Virus genome (UHGV): UHGV-0299546
Source of the DNA: a virus
Direction: 5' to 3' (one strand)
DNA: 35,363 nt
The translations under genes and the position numbers were made by a program. The notes below the pieces were generated by a model that saw only the letters and a program-made list of their open reading frames with translations, did not search any database and had not been told where the DNA came from. Shown here piece by piece: positions 34,633 through 35,243 of this stretch; the first letter of the stretch is position 1, and the number at the start of each line of letters is the position of its first letter.

Positions 34633-34633
34633 T

Positions 34634-34669
34634 TTTCTTTTATTTCTTTTATTTCTTTTATTTCTTTTC
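34634..34669. repeat. Tandem 9-bp repeat TTTCTTTTA, about 4 copies
   Basis: Three perfect copies and one imperfect copy directly after the terminator. Confidence 0.8.
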
Positions 34670-34674
34670 AACAA

Positions 34675-34698
34675 AATAGTTAATTAAAATTAACTATT
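34675..34698. repeat. Perfect 11-bp inverted repeat AATAGTTAATT-aa-AATTAACTATT
   Basis: Overlaps the stop codon of the minus-strand ORF; AT-rich palindrome. Confidence 0.7.
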
Positions 34699-34971
34699 AT
34701 GCTCTTGTCTCCATTGCCTAACCATTTCATCAGTAACATCACTCGCATAACAAATCACGTTATATCCTCCGCTACGGCTGTACGCACTACGCCCACCGCA
34801 TCGACTTCCATTTCTTGCATGATTATAAGGGCATGCACAATTTCCGGGATAAGATTCAATAGATTCCCTGATTATTTCTTGTTTAATTTGACTGTCAGAT
34901 TTATTAGTCTTTGCGTACCCCAACACAGACACAAAACAAAGACACATCCCAATAAAAATTTTAACTTTCAT
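34690..34971 (-). CDS. Small signal-peptide protein (93 aa), AT-rich moron-like gene
   Basis: ATG 34971 with AGGGAG RBS; N-terminal MKVKIFIGMCLCFVSVLGYA signal-like segment; Cys/Gly-rich mature part. Confidence 0.55.
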   Translation of the reverse strand: MKVKIFIGMCLCFVSVLGYAKTNKSDSQIKQEIIRESIESYPGNCACPYNHARNGSRCGGRSAYSRSGGYNVICYASDVTDEMVRQWRQEHNS

Positions 34972-35243
34972 ATAAAGCTCCCTGTTAAAAACCAGCAATA
35001 AAATTACTACCAAGTAGTAATGGGAATTTCTGGAACAAAGATCACAAAACAAAACAGCTAATATAAAAGCTATATAATTTTTAATTCCTATAGAAAAAGC
35101 CCAACAACCACGCGACGACACCAAGCAGCCATCACCACATAAACAAAGCCCGCATTAAACAGTGCGGGCTTTAAATCGCTATGGCAATAAGTGGACAACA
35201 CAAAAAATAATCCATTATTTTTCATTGTGTTATGCGGATTTTC

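What the first reader, a model, noticed from the sequence alone, without database searches (positions are those of the whole stretch)
34633..35130. AT-rich moron with a signal-peptide ORF, tandem 9-mers and an AT-rich palindrome
The minus-strand 93-aa ORF has a signal-like N-terminus and a Cys/Gly-rich body. It sits in sequence much more AT-rich than the phage backbone and is flanked by four copies of TTTCTTTTA and a perfect 11-bp inverted repeat that overlaps its stop codon. This resembles a horizontally acquired, possibly H-NS-silenced lysogenic-conversion gene. From memory, the ogr-adjacent context resembles the E. coli K-12 cryptic P2 remnant (ogrK-yegR), but I cannot verify that identity.
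Basis: partly seen in the sequence, partly recalled or inferred. Interest (0 to 1): 0.35.

Follow-up and report, generated by a model that had tools for sequence, protein, structure and literature searches.

The report
Prophage cargo gene for exported protein
This is an ordinary AT-rich cargo gene ("moron") at the right end of an intact P2-family prophage of E. coli; it encodes a small exported four-cysteine protein from a widespread family that nobody has characterised, so the gene is real but its function is unknown.

Summary
A 93-aa minus-strand ORF (34690-34971) has a signal-peptide-like N-terminus. It lies in a ~505-bp cassette (34642-35146) of 34.5% GC, against 52% for the prophage. A 3.9-copy TTTCTTTTA array and a perfect 11-bp inverted repeat over the stop codon both lie on its 3' side.

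The window is an intact P88-like (Xuanwuvirus, P2-family) prophage inserted in the ytfP terminator. The att core CGCCACCCGAAGGTG occurs at 183-197 and 35245-35259, so the ORF is inside the prophage. It occupies a variable slot between the hok/sok terminator and the attP arm, where relatives carry other cargo.

The gene is real. dN/dS is about 0.1 overall and 0.03 in the mature part. A 73%-identical allele sits in the same slot in P88-like prophages at tRNA-Leu; about 600 of 5426 E. coli genomes match the cassette. The family has about 2,300 clusters at 50% identity and 14 invariant positions, four of them cysteines. It has no Pfam, NCBIfam, PADLOC, PDB or fold match. Longer members fuse it to SH3_3, PG_binding_1, TonB_C and SNase, which indicates an extracytoplasmic role.

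The K-12 ogrK-yegR identification is wrong. H-NS silencing is untested. The 9-mer array is a copy-number-variable expansion of the hok terminator T-tract. Verdict: an ordinary moron carrying an uncharacterised domain; modest interest.

The parts
183..197 (.). attL core CGCCACCCGAAGGTG (left prophage boundary)
   Evidence: It is a 15-bp direct repeat of 35245-35259. The K-12 empty site reads straight through a single copy. A reconstructed empty site is 100% identical in many E. coli genomes.
291..1322 (-). Phage integrase next to attL (context)
   Evidence: A 343-aa ORF with tyrosine-recombinase-like sequence at the left end. The Chuche integrase region matches window 322-392.
33930..34190 (+). 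ogr late-gene activator (context; last conserved phage protein gene before the accessory region)
   Evidence: Pfam Ogr_Delta, E=5e-14.
34235..34521 (+). hok/sok-type toxin-antitoxin locus (sok-like RNA region 34235-34394; hok CDS 34381-34521), the left neighbour of the cassette
   Evidence: Pfam HOK_GEF, E=4e-7, above its cut-off. Rfam sok RF01794 scores 45.8 bits, below the gathering score of 59.
34608..34635 (.). GC-rich bidirectional terminator hairpin AAACCCGCAG-N8-CTGCGGGTTT, shared by hok (+) and the 93-aa gene (-); the last backbone element before the cassette
   Evidence: Flagged on both strands. Folding energy is -16.9 kcal/mol on the plus strand and -18.4 on the minus strand. Homology to P88 and Chuche ends at about 34641.
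34634..34669 (.). Tandem 9-mer array TTTCTTTTA x3 plus TTTCTTTTC; an expansion of the hok terminator T-tract at the backbone/cassette junction
   Evidence: TRF reports 3.9 copies. 0 of 2000 shuffles reach 3 copies. Copy number is 4, 3 or about 2 in cassettes that are otherwise >=97% identical. The array is absent from the 73% allele.
34642..35146 (.). The AT-rich cargo cassette (moron) as a whole
   Evidence: 34.5% GC against 52.2% for the backbone. It is bounded by P88-type backbone on both sides. Only 9 of 5426 complete E. coli genomes carry this allele.
34675..34698 (.). Perfect 11-bp inverted repeat with a 2-nt spacer, overlapping the stop codon; on the mRNA it forms an AU-rich hairpin followed by UUUUGUUG
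   Evidence: 5 of 2000 shuffles reach 11 bp, and the RNA hairpin is -9.0 kcal/mol. It is conserved in 4 carriers but degenerate in the RM12581 allele.
34690..34971 (-). 93-aa ORF: the precursor of a small exported 4-Cys protein (signal peptide codons 34912-34971; mature 73 aa at 34693-34911)
   Evidence: 242 homologues. 2277 clusters at 50% identity. Invariant residues listed. dN/dS is 0.09 overall, 0.03 in the mature part and 0.45 in the signal part. AF2 mean pLDDT 81.8.
34978..34982 (-). Shine-Dalgarno GGGAG, 6 nt before the ATG
   Evidence: Read directly from the sequence.
35004..35020 (.). 7-bp inverted repeat TTACTAC-ttg-GTAGTAA in the putative 5' leader (possible operator or RNA hairpin; function unknown)
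   Evidence: Read from the sequence. Conserved in the 4 carriers aligned. It was not tested against chance.
35060..35065 (-). Best candidate -10 hexamer, TATATT (it has no convincing -35)
   Evidence: Picked by hand. The consensus scan found no promoter-like site upstream of the ORF on the minus strand, so this is weak.
35145..35172 (.). Second GC-rich hairpin AAAGCCCGCA-N8-TGCGGGCTTT; terminator-like on the minus strand, it insulates the cassette from transcription entering from ytfP/attR; backbone homology resumes here
   Evidence: Homologous sequence is present in L002 and P88.
35147..35244 (.). Conserved phage attP arm (backbone) between the cassette and attR
   Evidence: 84% identical to the end of the P88 record and 91% identical to L002.
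35245..35259 (.). attR core CGCCACCCGAAGGTG (right prophage boundary), which is the stem of the ytfP terminator hairpin

Best explanation
Shown. The region is a self-contained accessory cassette (moron) of about 505 bp. It sits in the variable cargo slot at the right end of an intact P88-like (Xuanwuvirus, P2-family) prophage that is integrated into the terminator hairpin of E. coli ytfP. The slot lies between the hok/sok terminator and the conserved attP arm, and related phages hold unrelated cargo there. The cassette carries one gene, read towards hok. Its product is a 93-aa precursor whose N-terminal 20 residues have the features of a Sec signal peptide. The mature 73-aa protein belongs to a large, uncharacterised family that is under strong purifying selection. 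The family occurs in prophages, in plasmids and in chromosomes of Gram-negative bacteria.

Inferred. The protein is exported to the periplasm and cleaved after Ala20. Its four invariant cysteines form two disulfides, probably C47-C58 and C45-C74, because a phage mini-homologue keeps only the first pair. It acts in the cell envelope on a broadly conserved target. Longer family members attach the same domain to cell-wall-binding modules (SH3_3, PG_binding_1, TonB_C) or to secreted nucleases (SNase, GmrSD_C). The gene is probably transcribed on its own in the lysogen from the AT-rich upstream region. Transcription probably ends at the AU-rich stop-codon hairpin or at the GC hairpin shared with hok. 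My best guess at the benefit is an envelope-level trait for the lysogen, such as interference with incoming phage or DNA, or envelope protection; this is a guess.

The TTTCTTTTA array is a slippage-prone expansion of the hok terminator T-tract at the cassette junction and is not a conserved functional element. The 11-bp palindrome is specific to this allele.
For: Prophage and boundaries:
- A 15-bp direct repeat lies at both ends of the window.
- The K-12 empty site is contiguous across a single core.
- The reconstructed empty site is 100% identical in many genomes and intact in 5199 of 5426.
- The integrase lies at the left end.
- Identity to P88, Chuche and P88_4B11 is 96-97% over D-ogr-hok and ends at about 34641.
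- P88 backbone homology resumes at 35147.

Variable slot: P88 carries an 80-aa hypothetical. L002 carries a yidD-like gene plus a hypothetical. Chuche carries com plus a methyltransferase. P88_4B11 carries several ORFs.

Foreign composition: 34.5% GC against 52.2% for the backbone.

Real gene:
- 242 homologues.
- 2277 clusters at 50% identity.
- 14 invariant positions, including 4 Cys.
- dN/dS is 0.09-0.13 overall, 0.03-0.05 in the mature part and about 0.5 in the signal part.
- A Shine-Dalgarno sequence is present.

Same slot elsewhere: a 73%-identical allele lies between hok and attR in P88-like prophages at tRNA-Leu. The cassette matches in 606 of 5426 genomes.

Export: every homologue has a variable hydrophobic N-terminus ahead of the conserved domain. 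Long forms carry signal peptides or TM anchors. Fusion partners are SH3_3 (15 of 44), SH3_4 (8), PG_binding_1 (3), SNase (3), TonB_C and GmrSD_C.

Terminators and hairpins.

9-mer variability: 4, 3 or about 2 copies in near-identical cassettes, and the array is absent from the diverged allele.
Against: - No promoter-like site was found upstream of the ORF by the consensus scan, so expression in the lysogen is unproven.
- One of the nine carriers has a frameshifted copy, so the gene is dispensable.
- Export rests on inspection and family architecture, not on SignalP or experiment.
- The biochemical role is unsupported by any homology. There are no Pfam, NCBIfam or PADLOC hits, no PDB sequence hit, and no Foldseek hit in PDB or BFVD.
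- There is no conserved gene neighbour. The neighbours are cysDN in Acinetobacter and srfBC in the Klebsiella group.
- No cultured phage record holds a full-length homologue.
Confidence: 0.78

Rival explanations
1. The exported protein is a single-gene superinfection-exclusion or anti-phage factor that acts in the periplasm. It would block DNA entry or a tail-associated enzyme of incoming phages, as other cargo of P2-family phages (old, tin, fun/Z) and T4 Sp/Imm protect their hosts. This is a sub-hypothesis about function and is compatible with the best explanation.
For: - The gene sits in a cargo slot of a phage family known for defence hotspots (PMC9122126; PMC13586616).
- The same prophage carries IetAS in the GpA-GpQ hotspot.
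- Relatives carry Thoeris between D and ogr.
- The protein is exported.
- The family is frequent on phages, on plasmids and next to defence-like genes (ThiF/JAB, DUF4062).
- A 4.7-kb mobilisable plasmid carries it among its five annotated genes; the others are Rep, MobC, MbeB and one further hypothetical.
Against: - No PADLOC model matches.
- There is no similarity to solved exclusion proteins or lysozyme inhibitors.
- In Acinetobacter and in Klebsiella/Kosakonia the gene sits at conserved chromosomal loci without mobile-element context.
- Conservation of 50-60% identity across proteobacterial classes is unusual for exclusion proteins, which tend to be phage-specific.
Confidence: 0.2
2. The ORF is a chromosomal E. 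coli gene, or part of a separate island, lying outside the prophage.
For: It is adjacent to the chromosomal gene ytfP and has a composition unlike that of the phage.
Against: - The att core lies to the right of the ORF (35245-35259).
- 98 bp of P88-type attP arm separate the cassette from attR.
- Empty sites in 5199 genomes contain none of this sequence.
- The homologous allele occupies the same phage slot at a different chromosomal att site.
Confidence: 0.02
3. It is the K-12 cryptic P2 remnant context (ogrK-yegZ-yegR), that is, a YegR-like lipoprotein gene beside a decayed prophage.
For: Only the presence of an ogr homologue nearby.
Against: - The K-12 remnant lies at cyaR/yegS, and yegR lies on the D side of ogrK.
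- Here the prophage is intact and sits at ytfP.
- YegR and the 93-aa protein share no detectable similarity.
Confidence: 0.01
4. The ORF is a chance reading frame in an AT-rich spacer. The real features would then be non-coding: the repeats and palindrome as a regulatory or recombination site, or an sRNA.
For: - The repeats and the palindrome are statistically non-random.
- No consensus promoter precedes the ORF.
Against: - Strong purifying selection acts on the mature part (dN/dS 0.03).
- Thousands of homologues share invariant residues.
- The repeats and the palindrome are not conserved in the 73% allele, whereas the coding sequence is.
- No Rfam family matches near its threshold.
Confidence: 0.02
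5. The protein is a secreted toxin, bacteriocin-like peptide or host-directed virulence factor (classical lysogenic conversion).
For: - It is a small, Cys-rich, exported product.
- Carriers include UPEC, ETEC and STEC strains and Salmonella Typhi/Paratyphi.
- It occurs on plasmids of plant pathogens such as Xanthomonas and Pantoea.
Against: - No immunity gene or dedicated export partner lies beside it.
- The family is equally common in environmental non-pathogens.
- Fusions to cell-wall-binding modules point to the producer's own envelope.
Confidence: 0.07

Closest known systems
Morons / accessory cargo cassettes of P2-family (Peduoviridae) prophages (e.g. P2 old, tin, fun/Z; hotspots described in PMC9122126 and PMC13586616)
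   Same: - It is a discrete insert between conserved phage sequences.
- Its base composition is foreign.
- It is bracketed by terminators and read independently of the late operons.
- It is replaced by unrelated genes in sibling phages.
   Different: - The slot used here lies between hok/sok and the attP arm, downstream of ogr. It is not among the hotspots listed in the passages of PMC13586616 that I read: GpA-GpQ, the tail region, integrase-att and integrase-primase.
- The product matches no known defence model.
Escherichia phage P88 and relatives (genus Xuanwuvirus)
   Same: - Nucleotide identity is 96-97% across sheath-D-ogr-hok.
- The attP arm is homologous.
- The architecture is the same: int at the left end, hok after ogr.
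   Different: - P88, Chuche, P88_4B11 and phiSM carry other cargo in the slot.
- None of 50,697 phage records encodes a full-length homologue of the 93-aa protein.
Excalibur domain (PF05901), a small extracellular Cys-containing domain
   Same: - It has an overlapping repertoire of partners: it is fused to secreted SNase nucleases.
- It also occurs as a small stand-alone secreted protein.
- An SNase+Excalibur gene lies two genes from a family member in Pseudomonas.
   Different: There is no sequence relationship. Pfam gives no hit and hhalign gives 0.4% probability. The conserved motif differs: YPGxCxCPY...GSRCGxRSAYSRxGG.
PHROG 27544 (unknown function), and PHROG 14503 / 3117 ('membrane associated protein' / 'transmembrane anchored protein' of TL-2011b-like and Klebsiella phages)
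   Same: - The protein is a full-length member of PHROG 27544 (E=2e-48).
- It shares the core GSRCGGRSAxSRPGG with the 53-aa phage proteins, which also have a signal peptide.
   Different: - These PHROGs have no tested function.
- The mini-proteins keep only two of the four cysteines and lack both flanking helices.
E. coli K-12 YegR beside ogrK
   Same: Both are small proteins with an N-terminal signal, encoded near an ogr homologue.
   Different: The sequences are unrelated, the chromosomal locus differs, yegR lies on the opposite side of ogr, and K-12 has a remnant whereas this is an intact prophage.

Membership tests
Prophage moron (accessory transcription unit) | Inserted between conserved phage sequences and absent from, or replaced in, closely related phages | tested here: met
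   Backbone homology stops at about 34641 and resumes at about 35147. P88, Chuche, P88_4B11 and L002 hold other genes there.
Prophage moron (accessory transcription unit) | Base composition distinct from the phage backbone | tested here: met
   34.5% GC against 52.2%, below all 1358 backbone windows.
Prophage moron (accessory transcription unit) | Own promoter and terminator | tested here: inconclusive
   Terminator-like hairpins lie on both sides, and an AU hairpin lies at the stop codon. No consensus promoter lies upstream; there is only a hand-picked TATATT.
Prophage moron (accessory transcription unit) | Expressed from the repressed prophage and beneficial to the lysogen | not testable with these tools
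   This needs RNA-seq or proteomics of a lysogen and phenotyping of a deletion.
Inside the prophage (att-delimited element) | Lies between attL and attR, whose single-copy version is the empty site | tested here: met
   The 15-bp core occurs at 183-197 and 35245-35259. The reconstructed empty site is 100% identical in many genomes.
Xuanwuvirus / P88-like Peduoviridae | High nucleotide identity to P88-type genomes over structural and late-control genes | tested here: met
   96-97% identity over window 32600-34641. Only the right end was compared. Whole-genome identity was not computed.
Sec (SPase I) signal-peptide proteins | Basic n-region, 10-15-residue hydrophobic core, small residues at -3/-1, followed by a conserved mature domain | tested here: met
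   MKVK / IFIGMCLCFVSVL / G-Y-A|K. There is no lipobox. In all 32 aligned homologues the N-terminus is hydrophobic but variable in sequence. SignalP was not available.
K-12 PR-X remnant / YegR | Sequence similarity to YegR and location at cyaR-ogrK-yegZ-yegR | tested here: not met
   No BLASTP alignment at E<=100. The locus is ytfP/chpS.
Known anti-phage defence systems (PADLOC-DB v2) | Match to a defence-protein model | tested here: not met
   0 families at E<=1.
Excalibur domain (PF05901) | Match to the Pfam model / DxDxDGxxCE motif | tested here: not met
   No Pfam hit for any of 32 members. hhalign against an SNase-Excalibur protein gives 0.4% probability.
H-NS-silenced xenogeneic gene | AT-rich relative to the genome | tested here: met
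   65.5% AT.
H-NS-silenced xenogeneic gene | Bound by H-NS and derepressed in an hns mutant | not testable with these tools
   This needs ChIP-seq and transcriptomics.
Periplasmic lysozyme inhibitors / T4 Spackle-type exclusion proteins (solved structures) | Sequence or fold similarity to Ivy, MliC/PliC, PliG or Sp | tested here: not met
   No PDB sequence hit at E<=1. No Foldseek hit at E<=0.001 in PDB or BFVD.

The most novel reading that the evidence does not exclude
The 4-Cys module (YPGxCxCPY...GSRCGxRSAYSRxGG) is a previously undescribed extracytoplasmic domain with a new fold. Phages and plasmids spread it because, as a stand-alone periplasmic protein, it acts on a universally conserved envelope component. 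One example would be blocking entry of foreign DNA or phage. That would make it a new class of single-gene, envelope-level exclusion or protection factor occupying a so-far unlisted cargo hotspot (hok-attP) of P2-family phages.
Probability: 0.15. Interest if true: 0.6.

Novelty: new member of a known kind. Interest (0 to 1): 0.27.

Why it matters
The locus itself is a textbook moron. Showing that settles the finding and corrects the K-12 attribution.

Two things keep some value.
- The hok-to-attP slot of P88-like prophages is a cargo exchange point. About 1,500 of 5,426 complete E. coli genomes match its hok-side flank. It holds different genes in sibling phages, so it could be mined in the same way as the GpA-GpQ hotspot.
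- The cargo here belongs to a large family with no Pfam model: about 2,300 clusters at 50% identity, 465 species representatives, and near-identical copies in Salmonella Typhi and Paratyphi A. The family is strongly constrained, its AF2 core is confidently predicted, and it has no structural neighbour.

A cheap experiment, expression in a prophage-free host followed by a phage panel and envelope-stress assays, could assign a first function to the whole family.

Tried and rejected
- Pfam, NCBIfam and PADLOC scans of the protein and of 32 homologues gave nothing consistent. The only recurring hit was a spurious Sclerostin match in 3 of 32.
- A PDB sequence-profile search and Foldseek against PDB and BFVD, using a confident AF2 model, gave no match.
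- tblastn against 50,697 phage records found no full-length homologue. Only the family consensus found 53-aa mini-proteins.
- Guilt by association over 80 loci found only lineage-specific synteny: cysDN in Acinetobacter and srfBC plus an aldehyde dehydrogenase in the Klebsiella group. No conserved partner emerged.
- hhalign against an SNase-Excalibur protein showed no relationship.
- Comparison with YegR showed no relationship.
- tRNA and Rfam searches gave no tRNA att site and no RNA family above threshold in the cassette. The sok hit belongs to the neighbouring hok locus.
- Literature searches for accession numbers, PHROG ids and P88/Xuanwuvirus cargo found nothing on this gene.
- I considered that the sequence right of attR (gcgtgcttttattat, against K-12 gcgtatgcatatggt) was phage-derived, which would shift the boundary. 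I rejected this because unoccupied sites with exactly this sequence exist.
- I considered a lipoprotein and rejected it because no lipobox precedes any Cys.
- I considered the longer 144-aa TTG-start ORF and the 130-aa metagenomic gene calls. I rejected them in favour of the ATG with the GGGAG Shine-Dalgarno and the RefSeq call.
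Full report
**1. The observation**

- A minus-strand ORF runs from the ATG at 34971 to the stop at 34690-34692 and encodes 93 aa. GGGAG lies 6 nt before the ATG.
- RefSeq calls the same 282-nt CDS (WP_072201522.1, hypothetical protein) in E. coli IAL7250. That genome is 100% identical to window 34560-35363.
- The N-terminus (MKVK, then IFIGMCLCFVSVLGYA, then K) has the three parts of a Sec signal peptide. It has no lipobox.
- The rest of the protein is rich in Gly, Ser and Arg and has four cysteines.
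- The cassette 34642-35146 is 34.5% GC. The phage backbone is 52.2% (sd 5.9), and none of 1358 backbone windows of equal length is as low.
- Tandem Repeats Finder reports TTTCTTTTA x3.9 at 34634-34668. The fourth unit ends in C, so there are three perfect copies plus one variant.
- The inverted repeat AATAGTTAATT / AATTAACTATT (34675-34685 / 34688-34698) is perfect and contains the stop codon.
- Both repeats exceed chance. 0 of 2000 dinucleotide shuffles give three or more tandem copies, and 5 of 2000 give an 11-bp perfect hairpin.
- One correction: both repeats lie 3' of the ORF and do not flank it.

**2. Where it is**

The window is a complete P2-family prophage.
- The 15-mer CGCCACCCGAAGGTG occurs at 183-197 and again at 35245-35259.
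- In K-12 the two outer flanks are contiguous across a single copy of that 15-mer. This copy is the stem of the terminator hairpin between ytfP and chpS.
- I built an empty site from window 61-197 plus 35260-35363. It is found at 100% identity over all 241 nt in many E. coli genomes, and in one piece in 5199 of 5426.
- An integrase gene lies just inside attL.
- At the right end the order is gpD, ogr (Pfam Ogr_Delta, 5e-14), and a hok/sok-type locus (HOK_GEF 4e-7; Rfam sok below its threshold). A GC-rich hairpin at 34608-34635 follows.
- This stretch is 96-97% identical to phage P88 and other Xuanwuvirus genomes. The identity stops at about 34641.
- It resumes at about 35147 with a second hairpin and the attP arm.
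- The 93-aa gene is therefore inside the prophage and bracketed by phage backbone. It occupies a slot where siblings carry something else:
  - P88 has an 80-aa hypothetical.
  - A P88-like prophage at the same att site has a yidD-like gene plus a hypothetical.
  - Chuche has com plus a DNA methyltransferase.
  - P88_4B11 has several ORFs.
- Only 9 of 5426 complete E. coli genomes carry this allele, and all nine carry it next to ytfP.

**3. Is the gene real?**

Yes.
- The word-indexed search found 242 homologues of about 90-130 aa.
- The exhaustive profile search found 2277 clusters at 50% identity with E<=0.001, of which 1427 have E<=1e-10.
- An alignment of 32 diverse members has 14 invariant positions: S37, Y41, G43, C45, C47, P48, C58, G59, R61, S62, A63, G68, G69 and C74. 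The hydrophobic N-terminus before them varies.
- A 73%-identical allele (WP_071529678.1) sits in the same slot, between hok and attR and in the same orientation, in P88-like prophages integrated at tRNA-Leu beside pgsA. A distant blastn search of the cassette matches 606 of 5426 genomes.
- Between the two alleles dN/dS is 0.09. It is 0.03 over the mature part and 0.45 over the signal-peptide part. That is the pattern expected for an exported protein with a constrained mature domain.
- The exact protein occurs on 138 public contigs. Near-identical variants occur in Salmonella enterica, including Typhi and Paratyphi A. All are named hypothetical or prophage protein.
- One carrier (CB6837) has a 4-bp insertion that frameshifts the gene, so it is dispensable.

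**4. What the non-coding features are**

- In P88-type phages the hok terminator is followed by TTTTCTTTTT. Here the same position reads TTTTCTTTTA TTTCTTTTA TTTCTTTTA TTTCTTTTC.
- Among cassettes that are otherwise >=97% identical, the array has 4 copies (window, IAL7250), 3 copies (UPEC132, CB6837, and two more by length) or about 2 copies (ETEC1732 group).
- The 73% allele has no array.
- I therefore read the array as slipped-strand expansion of the terminator T-tract at the backbone/cassette junction. It lengthens the U-tail of the hok terminator but is not a conserved element.
- The 11-bp palindrome is conserved in the four carriers aligned and degenerate in the other allele.
- On the mRNA the palindrome forms an AU hairpin of -9.0 kcal/mol followed by UUUUGUUG. 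About 40 nt further on lies the GC hairpin (-18.4 kcal/mol), which is terminator-like on both strands.
- The simplest reading is that the gene's transcript ends at one of these two structures, converging with hok.
- Upstream, the hairpin at 35145-35172 is terminator-like on the minus strand. It would stop read-through from ytfP, whose own terminator loses its T-tract on integration.
- The consensus scan found no promoter between that hairpin and the ATG. The best candidate I could pick by eye is a -10 TATATT at 35065-35060 with no good -35. A 7-bp inverted repeat (35004-35020) lies in the putative leader.
- Expression in the lysogen is therefore inferred, not shown.

**5. What the protein might do**

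- No curated model matches it: Pfam, NCBIfam and PADLOC are all negative.
- PHROGs places it in family 27544 (unknown function, E=2e-48). It hits two families of about 53-77-aa phage proteins weakly; these are annotated only as membrane-associated.
- AlphaFold2 with the 32-sequence alignment gives mean pLDDT 81.8. Most of the mature domain (residues 31-60 and 71-90) scores above 90. The model has an N-terminal helix (26-40), a loop-rich Cys/Gly centre and a C-terminal helix (81-91).
- Foldseek finds nothing in PDB or BFVD, and a profile search of PDB sequences finds nothing.
- The informative evidence is architectural. In 44 longer family members the domain is joined to SH3_3 (15), SH3_4 (8), PG_binding_1 (3), SNase (3), TonB_C (1) or GmrSD_C (1). 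Those inspected begin with a signal peptide or membrane anchors.
- These partners are extracytoplasmic cell-wall-binding modules or secreted nucleases. This places the domain in the periplasm or at the cell wall.
- The nuclease partners are typical of the Excalibur domain, but there is no sequence relationship to Excalibur.
- A 53-aa homologue in phage TL-2011b keeps only the cysteines equivalent to C47 and C58. This suggests disulfides C47-C58 and C45-C74, which is an inference.
- Stand-alone members occur in prophages and on conjugative and megaplasmids of Xanthomonas and Pantoea. One sits on a 4.7-kb mobilisable Cobetia plasmid among five annotated genes: Rep, MobC, MbeB, one further hypothetical and this gene. 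Others lie next to relaxase or defence-like genes.
- Members also occur at conserved chromosomal loci in Acinetobacter (after cysDN) and in Klebsiella/Kosakonia (near srfBC). No partner gene is shared across lineages.
- 465 species representatives carry a relative, nearly all Pseudomonadota.
- I commit to this reading: a Sec-exported, disulfide-stabilised periplasmic protein that acts on a broadly conserved envelope component.
- The specific benefit may be exclusion of incoming phage or DNA, envelope protection, or something else. It remains a guess, at about 0.2 for exclusion.

**6. Comparison with what is known**

- In kind, this is a moron of a P2-family phage. The slot (hok to attP, downstream of ogr) is not among the P2 hotspots listed in the passages I read of the 2026 survey: GpA-GpQ, the tail region, integrase-att and integrase-primase (PMC13586616).
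- In this phage group the slot behaves as a cargo exchange site.
The K-12 remnant sits at cyaR-ogrK-yegZ-yegR. There, yegR lies on the other side of ogr. YegR is unrelated in sequence.
- H-NS silencing is plausible for 65% AT DNA but untested.

**7. Verdict**

The finding is an ordinary accessory cassette. Its only unusual aspect is that the cargo belongs to a large, tightly conserved domain family that has no Pfam model and no detectable structural relative. Interest is 0.27. I classify it as a new member of a known kind.

Noticed in passing
window 9012-12382 (+): A low-GC (0.37-0.41) two-gene insert lies between the replication gene A (6066-8831, Pfam Phage_GPA) and the late genes. It encodes IetA (373 aa, PADLOC 1e-77, AAA ATPase) and IetS (741 aa, PADLOC 7e-52, Peptidase_S8). 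This is an IetAS anti-phage system in the known GpA-GpQ hotspot.
   Followed up: partly
window 34235-34521 (+): A hok/sok-type toxin-antitoxin locus lies directly after ogr. The 46-aa Hok (HOK_GEF, 4e-7) is preceded by a sok-like region (Rfam RF01794, 45.8 bits, below the gathering score of 59). A megablast match to this hok-containing flank (34200-34641) is present in 1548 of 5426 E. coli genomes.
   Followed up: partly
window 35243-35264 and K-12 locus L003 2240-2290: The phage integrates into the stem of the ytfP terminator hairpin. In the lysogen, the T-tract that follows the hairpin on the ytfP sense strand in K-12 (GTTGTTTTTTG) is replaced by phage sequence (CGCGAAAATCC). ytfP transcription may therefore read into the prophage until the hairpin at 35173-35144.
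   Followed up: no
L010 2095-4010; L013 7349-8488: Related P2-like prophages that carry the 73% allele of the 93-aa gene also hold extra cargo between gpD and ogr. One has a Thoeris-like pair (SIR2_2/STALD plus ThsB_TIR) and another has a 379-aa SEC-C-motif protein. The D-ogr junction is therefore another variable slot.
   Followed up: no
window 35004-35020 and 35056-35077: A 7-bp inverted repeat (TTACTAC-ttg-GTAGTAA on the minus strand) and an imperfect 11-bp direct repeat (AGCTAATATAAA x1.9) lie in the region upstream of the ORF. They could be regulatory sites. They are conserved among the four carriers aligned but were not tested further.
   Followed up: no
L025 (Cobetia sp. 4B plasmid, 4702 bp) 2414-2692; plasmid hits H113-H142: Family members occur on 100 plasmid records (36 Xanthomonas, 30 Pantoea). 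One is a 4.7-kb plasmid with five annotated genes: Rep, MobC, MbeB, one other hypothetical and this gene.
   Followed up: partly
L027 2953-3114 (phage TL-2011b gp43): A 53-aa 'transmembrane anchored protein' of TL-2011b-like and some Klebsiella phages is a miniature of the domain. It consists of a signal peptide plus GRCQHDSDTAADGSRCGGRSADSRPGG, with two cysteines only.
   Followed up: partly
window 35260-35274: Immediately right of attR the window reads gcgtgcttttattat where K-12 reads gcgtatgcatatggt. This is a host polymorphism, because unoccupied sites with the window's version exist. It is not phage-derived sequence.
   Followed up: yes
L009 1611-1896 (E. coli CB6837): One of the nine carriers of this allele has a 4-bp insertion that frameshifts the 93-aa gene. 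RefSeq annotates it as a pseudogene.
   Followed up: yes
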